NCBI RefSeq assembly: GCF_046119375.1 | Contig: NW_027362767.1 | Location: 257,796,001 to 257,860,000 of the forward strand | Direction: 5' to 3' | DNA from: Phyllobates terribilis | Taxonomy: Eukaryota | Length of the DNA: 64,000 bases | In this document: piece after piece, positions 10,501-16,500 of the stretch | Layout: every line of letters starts with the position of its first letter | Numbering within the stretch: the stretch's first letter is position 1 | Position numbers: made by a program

Positions 10501-13500
10501 GTATCCTCACCCATCCCTCGTAGATGGTGTGCCCTCGCGGGCAGGGTCCTCGCTCCTCCTGTACCAGTCGCTGTCACATTGTGTTCAAGATTAGTGTAAT
10601 TGTTCTTGTATGTATACCCCTTTTTCACATATAAAGCGCCATGGAATTAATGTCGCTATAATAATAATAAATAATAATAATAATATAGGGCAGGAGGAAT
10701 CCTGAGCCGGTCACCCACCCTGCCATATCCTACCTGCTGACTGTATCCGCTTGTTTTTCAGGTGTTGTTCCGGCTGTCATGAATGGTTTACAGGAGTTGA
10801 GTTCGGCAAATCAAAGCAAACGGGGTGGTACTGTGGGGACTGCAGAGGTGAGGCAATGGTGGGGGGTCATAAGCTAAGACCCCTCCCCACCCAAATATTG
10901 GAGACCCTGCTTTGTTGTGACCCCTTAGATCTCATTTTCTTGAGTTGGGTTGATGGAGTGGGAAACTTTGCAAAAAAAAAAAATCTTATGTGCTGTATGC
11001 AGGCCCTGCACAGTCTTATGCATCGCCATGGTAACAGACTACAAACTACACTATGTAGTCGAGGCCTCCAGTGAGCTTGGAAGTTAGAAATGACTGTCTG
11101 GTTGGTTTCTTGTCGGCTTCCTTGGGGTTTCCTTACTGTTGGGTGTAAGATCTCTGTATGTAGACCCTCGTCCTAGTGCTGTAGAGTATTTGGTGGGGCT
11201 GCTGTGGTTTCTGCATGGTCCTGACACAATGTGACACTTCTGTTCTGTGCAGCCTCCCGTCGGGCGTACAACAAGCAGCTGAAGGTGAGTCTGTTTGTGT
11301 CAGCCCAGGGGCTCCGTTGGTGTGATGGACCCTGCGGGGGCTGCCCTCTCTGATCCGTCCCCCTCTGACTTGCAGACCAGCGGCTGCGGATCGTGCACCG
11401 CCTGCCGGCTGACGGAGAACTGCGGGCATTGCTCTGTGTGCCTCCTACGCTCTCAGAACCCCGAATTTGGAAGCTCCTGGAAGTGTGTGAGACGACGCTG
11501 CCTGCAGGTCATCAGGAAGGTCTGACAAATCAATCCTGTAGATGAATGATGGTGGTGGTAGTCAGGCAGGTTTAGTCAGTGGGGGCTTCAGTCAAAATAG
11601 AAGTATGGTGGGTGGGGGGCTGCACCTTGCTAATATACTCGCTGTTCCAATTCATTACTGTATCCAACACATCTGCTTGCTTTAATGAATGAAAATAATC
11701 ACCAGAAATAGTCACACAGCTGAGCGAGTCGTTACAATGTATCAGTAGACAATCCTATCCTCCTGGACTACAGACTAATAGCACTCACCTGCTCTGATAC
11801 ACTGTAACGGGTGTCTCAGCTGTGTTGTGAGCTGGATGTCAATTCTCTGTTTCCAACATCTCAGGGATTTAAAGCGATCAGAAATCTTGGAAAGGGTGAC
11901 GAGACTTGGCGCTGAAAAGCTTTAAGACCTGTTCCTGCTCACACAGCTGAGCCTGTCGTTGCAGTGTATCAGTGTAGACAATCCCCTCTCCCTTCGCCTG
12001 GATTTCAGGCGAATAACTATTGCCTACACTGATACATTGCAACAAAAACTCAGGACTAGTCCAGGATGGGTTTGCATTCCATGGCAGCAAGCAGAGTTAT
12101 TGGAAATAGTATAAAATAGATTAAAGTTTATAGTAGGATGATGGCAGAATCTCCTGACCTCCTGTAATAATGAAGGGGTGTAGATGGCCGCGGCCCCCCT
12201 ATAATGTGTGTCCTGTTGTGCCCCCAGGGAGGGGTGTGTGGCCGCTGCCCGGGCTGCTGCATGAAGGAAGACTGTGGTACCTGTGCCGTGTGTGTCAGTA
12301 AGGAGCAAAACCTGAAGGAGGCAAGCGACAAGAAGTGTCTGCGGCGCTGGTGCCACAATAAGGTGAGGAGCTGGCGGTGTCTGCTCCTGGAAAAGCTGGG
12401 TGACCACAAGCCATTATCACCTCCCTGTAATACCCAGACACAGCCAGCGAGTGAGGGTGGCGCTGTGTCTGCGCCCTCCATCATTGCATTGAATTTCCTG
12501 TTTTCGTCTTTGCATAGAAACAAAAGATCAAACCTCCCATGTTCAAAAAGTTGACGAAGAAGTTGAACCTGGTATGTATCTTCTGACCTGCACAACGTGA
12601 TGATGCAGCTGTTCACCCACAGAGGGCGCTAACGGCTGCTTTTATCATCTGGCTCAACAGAGAGGAAACTGCGGCCACTGTCCGGGCTGCTGCACGGCAG
12701 AAAACTGCGGCGTCTGCTCGCTGTGCATCAGAAGAATGCAGAACCCGGGTCGCAAGATTAAAGGGAAGTGTGTAAGGCGACGGTGTCACAATAAGGTGAG
12801 GGCTATTCTCTAGTGCCGTGGTGGACTACAGCTCCCAGCAGGATATTAGTACATACATGGTACAGGAGGAAAGAGCGAACGGCAGACTCGGCCCTGTGTA
12901 TAGCCGGAGTGTAATACCTCATTTCTCCTGTAGTGGCCTCTGTTGGGCTGAAAGGTTTTTGCATTTGGCTATGTGCCCACTATGCGTTTTTCAAGAGTTT
13001 TTTCTGCGAAATTTCCGCAGCAAAAATGCTTAAAAAACGCTTGGTAATATGTGCCCCATGGTCCCCAATGATAATACGCATGTGCTGTACACATGCTGCG
13101 GAAATTTCCGCTGCGGATTATCATTGCGGAAAAATACGCAGCATGTCCATTAATTTTGCGGACGCGCAGTGTAATTGCCGCCATTGACTTGCATTGGACC
13201 GCGTGAGATCTGCATCTGCACATGTGGATATTACACGGTTCAATGTGCAGATGGTACCAGGGTTTGGAGAAGAGGAGACTCTCCTCCAGACTCGGGTACG
13301 ATAGAACCTGTAAAAAAAAGAATTGAAAATAATAAATAAAGATTATACTTACCTTCCAATGTCCCCCGGTCTCCTTAGTGATGCGTCCGTTCTCTTGTAC
13401 GGCTCGCGGTGGTGTGAAGGACCTGCCATGACGTCATTTAGTCATGTGACAGGTCACGCGACCGCTGATGTCGGCGGTCGCATGACCTGTCACATGACTC

Positions 13501-16500
13501 AATGACGTCACCGCAGGTCCTTAAACACCACCGCGACCCATACCAGAGACCGGATGGAGCGGAGATAATACCGGGGGCCATCGGAAGGTAAGTATAATAT
13601 AATAGTATATAATAGTATTTTTTTAACTATTTCTTGGTCACACTATATAAATCCATGCCTGTTGCGTGGATTTATATAGTGTGACCAAGTTGTCAAGCAC
13701 TTTCCAAGTGATGCTAAAATCGCCTGGAAAGCGCTTGATAACCCGCATGCAGAAATGCATGTGAAGAACGCTTCACAAACGCTTCTACATGGCAGGAAAA
13801 CGCATGTACAATCCACATGTACAATCCACATGTACAATCCGCATGTACAATCCACATGTACAATCCGCATGTACAATCCACATGTGTTTTTCCTGCCAGG
13901 GAGAAGCGGAAAAAATCTGCAGCATTTCTGCATCGTGGGCACATAGCCTTAGTGTTTTTTCCTCCCCTTCTTCCATAACTTTTTCTTTCCTGTGCAGATA
14001 GCTGTGTGAGGGCTTGTTTTTTTTCAGGATGATTTGTAATTTTGAGTGACATTCATTTTTCCATATAAAATATAGAAAAATCAGGAAAAGAAATCCCAAG
14101 TGCAGTGAAAAAAAACTGCATTTCCGCCATTGTTTTTGGGCTTTGTTTTTACTGCGTCTAATATGCAGAATAAAACTACTTGGAAACTGGATTTTCTTGG
14201 TCAGTACGAGTACAGTGATACCAAATGTGGTATCCTATTGGACTATGGAGTTCTGCCTTTGTCATTTTTGGATATATATATATATATATATGTGTCTTTT
14301 AAAAACATTACTTTCCCTTTTTTACACCGGCTCGTCCTGACTTTCACAGGAATAACGGAATAACAACATGGGGGGAGGCCTATAGGTCCAATACATCCAT
14401 AGCATCCAAGTAAGACCCCATGATTGCATCGTGGGGTGGCCTCTAAGTTCACAGGAACAAGCGCTCCTTAATTGCCACTGTCGGCGATTGACAGCGGCAT
14501 TTAAGAGGTTAATGGCAGGAATCGGAGCCTAGCCCAGCTTTGATCGCTGCAGTAGCAGGCTCCATACATACCAGCACATCCTATGTGGAGAAGGGGTTAA
14601 AAAGCCTGATCTGCATTGTTCGGCCAATCAGATAACTGGGCTTTGACAATAGACGCAGAGATCTGATTGATTGCAGTTGACAAATATTTTTCTTTTCTTT
14701 TTTTTCCAGAAAAAGAAAATAAAAGTGAAGCCGAGACTTGGGATGAAAGGACAGGTGTGTGACGAGGGGGCCGAGCTGGTGTGAATGCCCCCGAGCCCTT
14801 TTTCCTGCTGCTTCCATGCTGCATTGGTTGCTGCTTGCAGAAGCTCCATCTCTAATCACCTGCATGCCCCCCCGCAGATCTTGCAGCCCTTCCCCCTGTC
14901 CTCGTAGGACCCTTCCATCCTCCACATACTCCTCTCCTGCTCCAGCCTTTCATCACTGTGCCCCCTCTTTTCTGCCGAGCACCTGATCTTTTCTTCCTCT
15001 TCACCCCTCCTCCTATGTTCGCAGCTGGCAGGCCGCCGCAAGAACCGGAAATGTGGGGAGTGCGAGGCCTGCCTTAAGAACTTGGACTGTGGCGTATGTG
15101 ACTTCTGCCAAGACAAGCCCAAATTCGGTGGCCGCAATCTCAAGCGGCAGAAGTGTCGCTGGCGGCAGTGCCTGCGTTTCGCAGTGGTGGGTTCACGTCC
15201 TGTCTCCTCAGCTTAAACCCTTATATTGGAAATTCTTTCTAAATTTCTAACTTTCTGGACTTTTACCTATTGTAATAATCTTTCCCCGTAAGCTTCCATG
15301 ATCAGAGGGGACACTTGGGGCAGTCTGTACCGGCGTGCGCCTCCTCTACAACGGCACCGATCCCAAAGATTTATGATGCGGAGCAGCTGTGGATTTCTAA
15401 TCATAGCTAAGCAATTGCTTAAATAGCCATTCCTCAGGACGGATCTATAAAATACGACTTTAGGTTCAATAGGTGTGCTGACTAGAGGCCACCATAAAAC
15501 AGCCTGAGCCCTGCAGTACTTTGGGATCTCGCTACCAGTTCTCTAGCACAGCAAGGAGTTGCCATTTTAGAAAGTTCATGATTTGAGTTGTCTGTGTGAC
15601 CCATGGCCGACCATCCCATGCTATTTTTGCCCGCTGTGGTTTGTGTGGATAGGGTGGGTGATACTTGCAGTAAATGCACTGTGCCCCCTTTCTTTACGGA
15701 GCTTGTGCCGCTTTGTATCTTAGGAGAAGAACATACCGCTATACCTGAAATCGTCCAATCACCCAATACTGCTGGAGCGGATACAGAAAGAGGCGGCCGA
15801 GGCTGTCGAGAACACCGAAGCCGTGGTAAGTATGGCAGCCCAGTCAGTATGATACTTCTGCAACTGATGCATCGCTCCACTGTGTCTAAAAGACAAAGTA
15901 TTGCAGGATTGTGAACAGTCTCGATATAGAAATCGCTTACCGTTTTCTGTATGCAGCTTCCTGTGCAGAGCTATGTGTCTCCATGGTTACAAACTGCAAG
16001 CAAATCTTCCACATCCCCGTTGTAGTCATGTGTTACTCCACATCATCTGTTCTCTGCCCGATTATCAGAAGCAGCAGAGTAACACGTGACGGCAGCTGGT
16101 AATTATTAACCCCTTCCCTTATGTCACAGTTGGGGTGCGCATGTATGGCGCGGGCTCAGGCGCTGCGCACATAGTGGCTCTGTTCTGTAACTACAACTGG
16201 AGACAGCTCAGATCGCTGCTACTCTGACAGCAGCATTTAAATGACCTTGGCTTCACCCCCCCTCCATGCCTCCAACCACCACATTTTTTTGTGATGCGAT
16301 TGTAAGGTCCCAACGGGTCATCAAGGCAAAAGGGGGCTACAGAGGGGTCCCCATTCGCTGCTATGTTGGTCCCTTTGGTCCTAAAGTGAGAACGTCACTT
16401 TAACCATACACTGCAATACTGTGGTGTACTGTGTGTAGTGTATGCAACCAAACCAGTCTTCCTAATAGTTTAAAGTAAAAGAAAGGTTGTTTTTTTTTTT

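What the first reader, a model, noticed from the sequence alone, without database searches (positions are those of the whole stretch)
12228..14754. MBD1 with four CXXC fingers via duplication of a [CXXC exon + basic mini-exon] module
Seen: exons 12228-12362 and 12661-12795 are both 135 nt, phase 0-0, end in CACAATAAG|GTGAGG and are 23/45 aa identical, including an unusual CPGCC. Each is followed by a short Lys-rich exon (54 nt KQKIKPPMF..; 45 nt KKKIKVKPR..). Established: human and mouse MBD1 have at most three CXXC fingers, and only the KFGG finger binds unmethylated CpG. Inference: a lineage-specific extra non-KFGG finger, likely a protein-interaction module. All modules are frame-symmetric, so combinatorial skipping is possible.
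Basis: partly seen in the sequence, partly recalled or inferred. Interest (0 to 1): 0.68.

Follow-up and report, generated by a model that had tools for sequence, protein, structure and literature searches.

The report
Frog MBD1 with four CXXC fingers
This poison-frog copy of the DNA-methylation reader gene MBD1 really carries an extra zinc finger, made by copying its second finger in the ancestor of one large frog group; it is already in public gene models, though no paper found describes it.

Summary
The + strand carries four canonical-spliced, phase-0 CXXC exons: F1 11376-11519, F2a 12228-12362, F2b 12661-12795 and the KFGG finger 15025-15186. Basic mini-exons lie at 12518-12571 and 14710-14754. 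All four fingers pass Pfam's zf-CXXC cut-off.

Four fingers are not the general non-mammalian state. Both F2a and F2b occur in 51 of 54 named records from 12 hyloid frog species. Eleven non-hyloid anurans, caecilians, reptiles, mammals and coelacanth show three.

A finger tree puts F2a and F2b inside the anuran second-finger clade (99/92). F2b is the better conserved copy and strongly basic (+9/+10). It lacks KFGG and the DNA-reading Gln.

The claim that the mini-exon was copied along with the finger is not supported: the two mini-exons are no more alike than chance (329 of 2000 shuffles).

Function is inferred only. Novelty is a lineage-specific variant of a known protein. Interest is modest.

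The parts
7042..7056 (+). Alternative first coding exon (isoform X1 start)
   Evidence: Exact match to residues 1-5 of P0123, followed by GTGAGT.
7139..7263 (+). Exon with the X2 start codon (ATG at 7154) and the first half of the MBD
   Evidence: Pfam MBD 33.2 bits for 7154-7261. Donor GT follows at 7264. Matches P0123 residues 6-46.
7626..7737 (+). Second half of the MBD
   Evidence: Pfam MBD 24.6 bits. AG/GT sites. P0123 residues 47-84.
8967..9110 (+). Basic linker exon
   Evidence: Exact match to P0123 residues 85-132. Limits are those of the protein match, give or take 2 nt.
10763..10846 (+). Cys-rich exon before the fingers
   Evidence: Exact match to P0123 residues 133-160. Limits give or take 2 nt.
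11252..11284 (+). Short exon before F1
   Evidence: Exact match to P0123 residues 161-171. Limits give or take 2 nt.
11376..11519 (+). CXXC finger 1 (F1), type 2, 144 nt, phase 0-0
   Evidence: Pfam zf-CXXC 44.2 bits. AG/GT sites. P0006 residues 162-209, 48 of 48 identical.
12228..12362 (+). CXXC finger 2a (F2a), type 2, 135 nt, phase 0-0
   Evidence: Pfam 28.3 bits. AG/GT sites. P0006 residues 210-254, 45 of 45. F2a clade 100/95 in the finger tree.
12518..12571 (+). Basic mini-exon m1, 54 nt
   Evidence: AG/GT sites. P0006 residues 255-272, 18 of 18. Its end motif KKLN+L matches the end of the first basic exon after the second finger in other tetrapods.
12661..12795 (+). CXXC finger 2b (F2b), the extra finger: type 2, very basic, 135 nt, phase 0-0
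   Evidence: Pfam 30.9 bits. AG/GT sites. P0006 residues 273-317, 45 of 45. Found only in hyloid or unnamed records, 14 of 14 hits. 29 of 43 columns invariant over 11 hyloid sequences; net charge +9/+10.
14710..14754 (+). Basic mini-exon m2, 45 nt
   Evidence: AG/GT sites. P0006 residues 318-332, 15 of 15. Skipped in P. terribilis X5 and in some Eleutherodactylus and Dendropsophus isoforms.
15025..15186 (+). CXXC finger 3 (KFGG, type 1), 162 nt, phase 0-0
   Evidence: Pfam 62.2 bits. KFGG and RQKC present. P0006 residues 333-386, 54 of 54. Skipped in 16 of 54 named hyloid records.
15724..15825 (+). Exon after the fingers
   Evidence: P0123 residues 397-430. Skipped together with the KFGG exon in X4 and X5.
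21949..22035 (+). Exon
   Evidence: P0123 residues 431-459.
22135..22233 (+). Acidic exon
   Evidence: P0123 residues 460-492.
22326..22406 (+). Acidic exon
   Evidence: P0123 residues 493-519.
23293..23736 (+). Last coding exon with the stop codon
   Evidence: P0123 residues 520-666 end at 23733. The open frame 23206-23736 includes the stop. No Pfam family found.

Best explanation
**What it is.** The window holds the MBD1 gene of a dendrobatid frog, identical to the Phyllobates terribilis record. It encodes one MBD and four CXXC zinc fingers.

**How it arose.** The extra finger came from an exon duplication of the second, non-DNA-reading (type 2) finger. This happened in the stem lineage of hyloid frogs, after their split from myobatrachoids. 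The result is the order F2a - m1 - F2b - m2.

**The mini-exons.** I take m1 to be the ancestral first basic mini-exon. I take m2 to be most probably the shortened ancestral second basic mini-exon. On that reading what was gained is one finger exon lying between two pre-existing mini-exons, either by insertion of the finger alone or by a tandem copy of finger plus m1 with one mini-exon later lost.

**How the copies diverged.** F2a kept the near-neutral character of the anuran second finger and evolves fast. F2b became strongly basic and is tightly conserved.

**Usage.** Both fingers are used constitutively in this species' annotated isoforms. As in mammals, the regulated exon is the KFGG finger.

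**Likely mechanism (inferred, not shown).**
- F2b folds as a two-zinc CXXC module.
- It cannot read CpG, because it lacks KFGG and the Gln before the seventh Cys.
- With the Lys-rich mini-exons it forms a positively charged surface between the protein-binding fingers and the CpG-binding finger.
- That surface could add a protein-docking site, unspecific nucleic-acid or nucleosome affinity, or nuclear targeting.
For: **Shown: exon structure**
- Four zf-CXXC exons score above Pfam's cut-off.
- All eight zinc-ligand Cys are invariant in the four fingers.
- Splice sites are canonical and the exons are phase 0.
- 8 of 8 exon translations are 100% identical and contiguous in P0006.
- 666 of 666 residues of P0123 map collinearly to the window.

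**Shown: distribution**
- 51 of 54 named hyloid records (12 species) hold both F2a and F2b.
- Pfam counts 4 fingers in the longest isoforms of Phyllobates, Bufo and Hyla. It counts 3 in the longest isoforms of Pseudophryne and Mixophyes, and 3 in the one record scanned each of Xenopus, Discoglossus and Rhinatrema.
- Of the 112 named records among the best 120 KFGG-exon hits, 100 have three fingers. The 7 with four are all hyloid.
- The F2b-exon search hit only hyloid records: 13 named plus the unnamed P0010, 14 of 14.

**Shown: origin from the second finger**
- All anuran F2, F2a and F2b rows form one starred clade (99/92), within a second-finger grouping (81/96) that holds no F1 row; F1 itself is not resolved as one clade (2 changes) and the KFGG fingers served as outgroup. 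F2a forms a clade at 100/95.
- A clade of F2a plus F2b is not rejected (p-AU 0.309).

**Shown: age**
- DNA similarity is confined to the exon and donor. There is a 37-nt stretch at 84% and nothing alignable in the introns.

**Shown: divergence of the copies**
- F2b has 29 of 43 invariant columns and charge +9/+10.
- F2a has 15 of 43 invariant columns and charge -1 to +5.
- Non-hyloid anuran second fingers have charge -2 to +6.

**Shown: transcripts**
- Ten unnamed Logan proteins of the P0010 cluster lie on contigs of 1.9-3.8 kb, while the gene spans 16.7 kb here. They therefore come from spliced RNA of some other hyloid.
- 8 of the 10 have four fingers.

**From the literature (passages read)**
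- Type 2 fingers lack KFGG and the conserved Gln, and do not bind CpG.
- Human CXXC1 binds Ring1b.
- Mammalian isoforms carry two or three fingers (PMC4642587, PMC3685328, PMC4914596).
Against: - The finger tree has only 43 columns. The relation among F2a, F2b and the other anuran second fingers is an unresolved polytomy.
- The long-branch Discoglossus second finger falls inside the F2b clade. F2b alone as a clade costs only 0.18 lnL (p-AU 0.489).
- For 9 of the 11 non-hyloid anurans I saw only one isoform each, so a skipped fourth finger cannot be excluded from protein records alone.
- The origin of m2 is unsettled. Profile matches to outgroup linkers score at most 5.2 bits. m2 also begins KKKI like the ancestral first mini-exon.
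- I could not see the RNA evidence behind the RefSeq models.
- No experiment bears on function.
- The AlphaFold2 model of F2b was too poor to use (mean pLDDT 61.4).
Confidence: 0.85

Rival explanations
1. A two-exon module [finger + basic mini-exon] was duplicated in tandem, so m2 is the paralogue of m1. The ancestral second basic exon (the one beginning KWKP) was lost.
For: - The order finger-mini-finger-mini is what a tandem copy would give.
- Both mini-exons begin K-x-K-I-K and follow an identical CHNK|GTGAGG exon end.
- m2 begins KKKI, as the first mini-exon does in a gecko and in caecilians.
Against: - m1 versus m2 scores no better than chance: 329 of 2000 shuffles reach the observed score.
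- m2 continues KVKP-R. This matches the start of the second ancestral exon: IKVKP in Discoglossus, KWKP in myobatrachoids, caecilians and a turtle.
- The model needs an extra loss.
- No relic of a lost exon was found in the introns.
Confidence: 0.3
2. Four fingers are ancestral for anurans or for tetrapods. F2b is the old basic second finger, lost repeatedly outside hyloids.
For: - F2b's charge (+9/+10) resembles the second finger of amniotes and caecilians (+9 to +12). Other anuran second fingers are near neutral.
- The Discoglossus second finger groups with F2b.
Against: - It needs at least five independent losses: myobatrachoids, ranoids, pelobatoids, pipoids, Discoglossus.
- F2b lies inside the starred anuran second-finger clade (99/92), apart from the amniote and caecilian second fingers.
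- The Discoglossus placement is a long branch (1.22) with SH-aLRT 45. Removing it from F2b costs 0.18 lnL.
- Three fingers are seen in Latimeria, caecilians, reptiles and mammals.
Confidence: 0.05
3. F2b is a predicted but unused pseudo-exon that annotation pipelines propagate.
For: All named records are computed gene models. I could not inspect their RNA support.
Against: - The frame is open, the splice sites are canonical, and all eight Cys are kept.
- 29 of 43 columns are invariant across seven hyloid families.
- Transcript-sized unnamed contigs encode the four-finger protein in 8 of 10 cluster members.
Confidence: 0.03

Closest known systems
Mammalian MBD1 (human and mouse), with CXXC1, CXXC2 and CXXC3
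   Same: - One N-terminal MBD.
- Type 2 fingers first, and one KFGG type 1 finger last.
- Phase 0-0 finger exons (passage in PMC3632108).
- The KFGG finger is the alternatively spliced one: two or three fingers depending on isoform (PMC4914596). Here the KFGG finger is skipped in 16 of 54 hyloid records.
   Different: - Three type 2 fingers instead of two.
- The extra finger lies between two Lys-rich mini-exons.
- The last exon has no Pfam family. I did not test it for likeness to the mammalian repression domain.
MBD1 of non-hyloid anurans (Xenopus laevis S, Pelobates, Spea, Rhinophrynus, Discoglossus, Mantella, Nanorana, Hyperolius, Gastrophryne, Pseudophryne, Mixophyes)
   Same: The same gene and finger order. 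F1 and the KFGG finger are 34-39 of 48 and 44-50 of 54 residues identical to the window in the five of these compared exon by exon: Pseudophryne, Mixophyes, Mantella, Xenopus and Pelobates. Their single second finger is near neutral, like F2a.
   Different: One second finger only. It is followed directly by two basic stretches (the first ending KKL+T/N, the second beginning KWKP) with no finger between them.
MLL1 (KMT2A) CXXC domain, PDB 2jyi, 2kkf, 2j2s, 4nw3
   Same: Closest solved structure to F2b by sequence (31.3 bits, E 1.5e-06). The loop length is the same, with a shared G-R-x-I-K stretch.
   Different: MLL1 has KFGG and K-Q before the seventh Cys and reads CpG. F2b has Q-N-P-G and G-K at those places.
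Human MBD1 CXXC1, PDB 4d4w
   Same: A type 2 finger of the same protein. It matches F2b at 22.9 bits and F2a at 17.6 bits.
   Different: The paper describes the loop face of human CXXC1 as negatively charged (PMC4642587). F2b is +10.
Lissotriton helveticus MBD1 isoform X4 (P0003)
   Same: Another amphibian MBD1 model with more than three fingers: Pfam counts five.
   Different: There the KFGG finger is multiplied (three copies) in an 1192-aa model, not the type 2 finger. I did not follow it up, and it may be a model artefact.

Membership tests
zf-CXXC (Pfam PF02008) | Profile match above the curated gathering score (26.5 bits) | tested here: met
   F1 44.2, F2a 28.3, F2b 30.9 and KFGG finger 62.2 bits, each exon scanned alone. 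Four stretches are counted in P0123.
zf-CXXC (Pfam PF02008) | Eight zinc-ligand Cys in CXXCXXC-X4/5-CXXCXXC ... C-X4-C | tested here: met
   C4, C7, C10, C16, C19, C22, C37 and C42 are invariant in the alignment of the four window fingers.
zf-CXXC (Pfam PF02008) | Two-zinc crescent fold | tested here: inconclusive
   The AlphaFold2 model of F2b, from a four-row alignment, had mean pLDDT 61.4 and pTM 0.33. That is too poor for a fold search, and none was run.
Type 1 (CpG-reading) CXXC | KFGG motif after the second Cys cluster | tested here: not met
   F2a has Q-N-L-K and F2b has Q-N-P-G at that place. Only the finger at 15025-15186 has KFGG. The motif definition comes from passages of PMC4642587.
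Type 1 (CpG-reading) CXXC | K/R-Q dipeptide in the DNA-binding loop before the seventh Cys | tested here: not met
   F2a has K-K and F2b has G-K. The KFGG finger has R-Q-K. The requirement comes from PMC4642587 and PMC4914596.
Type 2 CXXC (as MBD1 CXXC1 and CXXC2) | [quoted passage not shown] | tested here: met
   The loop is 14 residues in F2a and F2b, as long as in F1 and one residue shorter than in the KFGG finger, and lacks both motifs.
Type 2 CXXC (as MBD1 CXXC1 and CXXC2) | No CpG binding; binds protein partners | not testable with these tools
   This needs a gel shift or a pull-down. Only the mammalian data were read.
MBD1 orthologue | N-terminal MBD plus a CXXC array ending in a KFGG finger | tested here: met
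   MBD halves score 33.2 and 24.6 bits. P0123 scores MBD 66.3 bits with four CXXC. The best hits of the KFGG exon are records named MBD1 across tetrapods.
MBD1 orthologue | Conserved neighbourhood (CXXC1/CFP1 next to MBD1, recalled for human) | tested here: inconclusive
   Upstream of 7042 the window holds only repeats and gaps. Indirect hint: the Leptodactylus model P0004 joins a CFP1-like PHD+CXXC head to MBD1.
MBD1 orthologue | C-terminal transcriptional repression domain | not tested
   The last exon has no Pfam family. It was not compared with the mammalian domain.

The most novel reading that the evidence does not exclude
F2b is a neofunctionalised finger. After the anuran second finger lost the strongly basic surface that it has in caecilians and amniotes, hyloid frogs regained such a surface on a new copy. 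That copy, with its invariant loop N-P-x-R-K-I-K-G-K and the flanking Lys-rich mini-exons, gives hyloid MBD1 a contact that three-finger MBD1 lacks. The contact would be with nucleic acid, the nucleosome or a new partner, and would change where the protein sits on chromatin.
Probability: 0.2. Interest if true: 0.5.

Novelty: new variant of a known kind. Interest (0 to 1): 0.3.

Why it matters
MBD1 is the only methyl-CpG reader that also carries CXXC fingers, and the job of its non-DNA-reading fingers is poorly understood. Hyloid frogs offer a natural experiment. One type 2 finger was copied tens of millions of years ago (dating recalled, not computed here). One copy then drifted while the other became highly basic and nearly frozen.

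That contrast marks F2b's loop as functionally important. It gives a defined pair of sequences to test for what a type 2 finger binds.

The finding also shows that the three-finger layout taken from human and mouse is not universal in tetrapods. Beyond that it is an ordinary case of exon duplication in a gene built from phase-0 exons.

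Tried and rejected
- **Placing m1 and m2 on outgroup linkers.** I built profile HMMs of m1 and m2 from 10 hyloid proteins and searched the linkers of 13 outgroup proteins. All scores were 6.1 bits or below. m1's best hits fell at the KKLN+I end of the first ancestral stretch. m2's best hit was IKVKP in Discoglossus (5.2 bits). This is too weak to decide the origin of m2.\n- **Relics of a lost mini-exon.** I searched the four introns between F2a and the KFGG exon. Nothing rose above shuffles except a four-residue PPMF at 15009-15020 (4 of 200 shuffles). 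It overlaps the polypyrimidine tract of the next exon, and I take it for chance.\n- **AlphaFold2 of F2b.** Run from the four window fingers. Mean pLDDT 61.4. The model was discarded and no fold search was run.\n- **Intron similarity between the two modules**. Every search with window sequence was made exon by exon.

Full report
**1. What is in the sequence**

A six-frame pattern scan found seven CXXC-like hits. Four are finger exons on the + strand, near 11385, 12237, 12670 and 15052. Three lie in a Cys-rich tandem repeat at 20384-20656 and are false.

With splice sites read from the sequence, the exons are:

| Exon | Coordinates | Length |
|---|---|---|
| F1 | 11376-11519 | 144 nt |
| F2a | 12228-12362 | 135 nt |
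| m1 | 12518-12571 | 54 nt |
| F2b | 12661-12795 | 135 nt |
| m2 | 14710-14754 | 45 nt |
| KFGG finger | 15025-15186 | 162 nt |

All have AG acceptors and GT donors, and all are multiples of three. Each finger exon, scanned on its own, passes Pfam's zf-CXXC gathering score of 26.5: 44.2, 28.3, 30.9 and 62.2 bits. The two MBD half-exons, 7154-7263 and 7626-7737, pass the MBD model. The eight zinc-ligand Cys are invariant in all four fingers.

F2a and F2b share 23 of 45 residues and 84 of 135 bases. Each is the other's best match among the four fingers (score 149 against 110 and 126 to F1).

**2. The exon chain is an existing public gene model**

Searching with the KFGG exon alone among longer proteins gave 1036 hits at E <= 1e-5, of which the best 120 were listed. 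One of them, P0006, is NCBI's 'methyl-CpG-binding domain protein 1-like isoform X2 [Phyllobates terribilis]'. It contains all eight exon translations that I tested, at 100% identity and contiguous. F1, F2a, m1, F2b, m2 and the KFGG finger occupy residues 162-386 without a gap.

All 666 residues of the X1 isoform, P0123, map onto the window in 17 collinear blocks from 7042 to 23733. The window is therefore frog and not human: a dendrobatid, Hyloidea.

All searches with window sequence were made exon by exon, and the joined protein was examined only as these public records.

**3. Is four fingers the general non-mammalian state? No**

Counting the Cys pattern in the 120 listed hits gave:

| Fingers | All 120 hits | 112 named records |
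|---|---|---|
| five | 2 | 2 |
| four | 8 | 7 |
| three | 105 | 100 |
| two | 2 | 2 |
| one | 3 | 1 |

. Every four-finger record is from a hyloid frog, or is the unnamed P0010. Of the two five-finger records:
- P0004 (Leptodactylus) is a four-finger MBD1 with a CFP1-like PHD+CXXC head joined on.
- P0003 (Lissotriton) has three KFGG fingers.

After adding cluster members and the hits of an F2b-exon search, I had 54 named records from 12 hyloid species:
- Phyllobates terribilis, Dendrobates tinctorius, Ranitomeya imitator, R. variabilis
- Anomaloglossus baeobatrachus, Leptodactylus fuscus
- Bufo bufo, B. gargarizans
- Hyla sarda, Dendropsophus ebraccatus
- Eleutherodactylus coqui, Rhinoderma darwinii

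Of these, 51 hold both F2a and F2b. The three exceptions are two Bufo X5 isoforms that skip m1+F2b and one 242-aa fragment.

Assigning these genera to seven hyloid families is my own knowledge. One search lists those families under Hyloidea.

Three fingers are seen in:
- Pseudophryne and Mixophyes (Myobatrachoidea). Here I saw all listed isoforms, and Pfam counts three in the longest ones.
- Mantella, Nanorana, Gastrophryne, Hyperolius, Pelobates, Spea, Xenopus laevis S, Rhinophrynus and Discoglossus.
- Three caecilians, turtles, geckos and other lizards, many mammals and Latimeria.

For the nine non-hyloid anurans other than the two myobatrachoids I saw only one isoform each. Ascaphus is a fragment and says nothing.

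The F2b-exon search found 14 proteins, all hyloid or P0010. That search needs shared five-residue words, so it would miss distant copies.

Taking myobatrachoids as the near outgroup of hyloids (recalled from the frog phylogeny literature, not checked here), one gain on the hyloid stem explains the pattern. An ancestral four-finger state would need at least five losses.

**4. Which finger was copied**

I built a maximum-likelihood tree of 74 finger sequences with 43 columns. It included all F1, F2, F2a and F2b fingers of 29 proteins, with six KFGG fingers as outgroup. Left out were 22 of the 28 KFGG fingers and the Gastrophryne second finger, whose model is broken. The unnamed P0010 was included. 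The tree shows:
- Every anuran F2, F2a and F2b falls in one starred clade (99/92). That clade lies within a second-finger grouping (81/96) that holds no F1 row; F1 itself is not resolved as one clade, and the KFGG fingers served as outgroup.
- F2a is a clade (100/95).
- F2b is a clade (98/98) that also takes in the long-branch Discoglossus second finger (branch 1.22, local SH-aLRT 45).
- Relations among F2a, F2b and the other anuran second fingers are unresolved.

AU tests do not reject F2a+F2b as one clade (p 0.309). They also do not reject F2b without Discoglossus (p 0.489, 0.18 lnL).

So both fingers descend from the anuran second finger. The tree is compatible with a hyloid-stem duplication but does not prove it. 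The taxon distribution carries that point.

DNA similarity between the two copies stops at the exon edge plus the donor: a 37-nt stretch at 84%, and nothing alignable in the introns. That fits an old event.

**5. Was the mini-exon copied too? Not shown**

In other tetrapods the second finger is followed by two basic stretches. The first ends in KKL-T/N plus one hydrophobic residue. The second begins KWKP, or KVKP in Discoglossus. Isoforms and lineage-specific insertions place an exon border between them.

- m1 ends KKLNL and matches the first stretch. Its best profile hits are TKKLNI and KKLNI.
- m2 reads KKKI-KVKPR. Its second half resembles the start of the second stretch, and its first four residues resemble the start of the first.
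- m1 against m2 scores no better than composition predicts: 329 of 2000 shuffles reach the observed score.
- The profile placements are all too weak to decide (at most 6.1 bits).
- No relic of a lost exon turned up in the introns.

I therefore read the event as the gain of one finger exon between two pre-existing mini-exons. The mechanism could be insertion of the finger alone, or a tandem copy of finger plus m1 followed by loss or fusion of one mini-exon.

**6. How the two copies evolved, and what F2b may do**

| Finger | Mean pairwise identity (one sequence per hyloid family) | Invariant columns | Net charge |
|---|---|---|---|
| F1 | 0.92 | not counted | +4 to +5 |
| F2a | 0.68 | 15 of 43 (10 full-length sequences) | -1 to +5 |
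| F2b | 0.83 | 29 of 43 (11 sequences) | +9 to +10 |
| KFGG finger | 0.94 | not counted | +5 to +7 |

. F2a's charge is like that of other anuran second fingers (-2 to +6). F2b's charge is like that of the second finger of caecilians and amniotes (+9 to +12).

F2b's nearest solved relative by sequence is the MLL1 CXXC domain (31.3 bits). They share the same loop length and a G-R-x-I-K stretch. Human MBD1 CXXC1 follows at 22.9 bits. But F2b has Q-N-P-G where type 1 fingers have KFGG, and G-K where they have K/R-Q.

The passages I read state three things (PMC4642587, PMC3685328, PMC4914596):
- Both of those features are needed for CpG binding.
- MBD1's first two fingers lack them.
- Those first two fingers seem to act as protein-binding modules; human CXXC1 binds Ring1b.

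By inference F2b is a type 2 finger that cannot read CpG. Its conserved, highly basic loop, flanked by Lys-rich mini-exons, would make a charged surface. That surface could serve as a partner site, give unspecific nucleic-acid or nucleosome contact, or support nuclear import. None of this was tested. An AlphaFold2 model was too poor to use (pLDDT 61.4).

**7. Splicing**

All five P. terribilis isoforms keep F2a, m1 and F2b. They differ in:
- the start exon;
- skipping of the KFGG exon (X3);
- skipping of the KFGG exon plus the next exon (X4);
- skipping of m2 as well (X5).

Over the 54 hyloid records the layouts are:

| Layout | Records |
|---|---|
| F1-F2a-F2b-KFGG | 33 |
| F1-F2a-F2b, KFGG skipped | 16 |
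| F1-F2a-KFGG, a 63-residue in-frame loss equal to m1+F2b (Bufo bufo and B. gargarizans X5) | 2 |
| F2a-F2b-KFGG (Rhinoderma X3) | 1 |
| Fusion model | 1 |
| Fragment | 1 |

The main regulated exon is thus the KFGG finger, as in mammals. These are computed models whose RNA support I could not see.

Independent support for inclusion comes from the unnamed P0010 cluster. Ten proteins of up to 668 aa sit on contigs of 1.9-3.8 kb, against 16.7 kb for the gene here. They must therefore be spliced transcripts of some other hyloid (F2a only 30 of 45 identical to the window). Eight of the ten have four fingers.

**8. Known or new**

Reviews and the structure paper speak of up to three fingers. A paper on exon phases notes that human MBD1 is built almost wholly from 0,0 exons. 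My searches found no paper describing a four-finger MBD1 or amphibian MBD1 fingers. Subscription journals are largely outside that library.

The feature is plainly visible in RefSeq records of at least 12 species. I rate it a new variant of a known kind: real, lineage-specific and undescribed, but of modest surprise.

Noticed in passing
P0003 (NCBI MBD1 isoform X4, Lissotriton helveticus), residues 161-870: This newt model of 1192 aa has five CXXC fingers, three of them with KFGG (at 516, 737 and 822). In salamanders the CpG-reading finger may have been multiplied, or the model may be wrong.
   Followed up: partly
P0004 (Leptodactylus fuscus), residues 1-165: This gene model joins a CFP1-like head (PHD finger plus a KFGG CXXC finger) to a four-finger MBD1. 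It is probably a read-through of two neighbouring genes. That hints that CFP1 lies just upstream of MBD1 in frogs, as I recall it does in human.
   Followed up: partly
Alignment of second fingers, not a window place: The net charge of the second finger is +9 to +12 in caecilians, reptiles and mammals. It is only -2 to +6 in non-hyloid anurans. Hyloid F2b is back at +9/+10.
   Followed up: partly
window 27168-28163, 41731-42702, 48467-49444, all on the - strand: Three intact, intronless olfactory-receptor open frames (Pfam 7tm_4, 149 to 195 bits) lie downstream of MBD1.
   Followed up: partly
window 17558-19508, - strand, inside the MBD1 intron 15826-21948: Remains of an LTR-retrotransposon-like pol gene, broken into several frames: reverse transcriptase (17558-18088) and integrase zinc-binding domain (19038-19508).
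   Followed up: partly
window 3036-4100 (-), 40030-40644 (-), 50666-51694 (-): Tc1/mariner-type transposase frames (DDE_3, HTH_Tnp_Tc3_2). The copies at 3036-3653 and 40030-40644 are nearly identical in protein.
   Followed up: partly
window 13788-13891: A 13-nt tandem repeat (six overlapping 39-nt copies) in the intron between F2b and m2. That intron also holds inverted-repeat-rich, transposon-like sequence.
   Followed up: no
window 300-820, 4700-5590, 20370-20660, 33210-34580, 56940-57680: Long simple tandem repeats that give spurious open frames on both strands. The one at 20384-20656 mimics the CXXC Cys pattern.
   Followed up: no
window 23293-23733: The 147-residue C-terminal exon of this MBD1 matches no Pfam family. 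I did not compare it with the mammalian repression domain.
   Followed up: no
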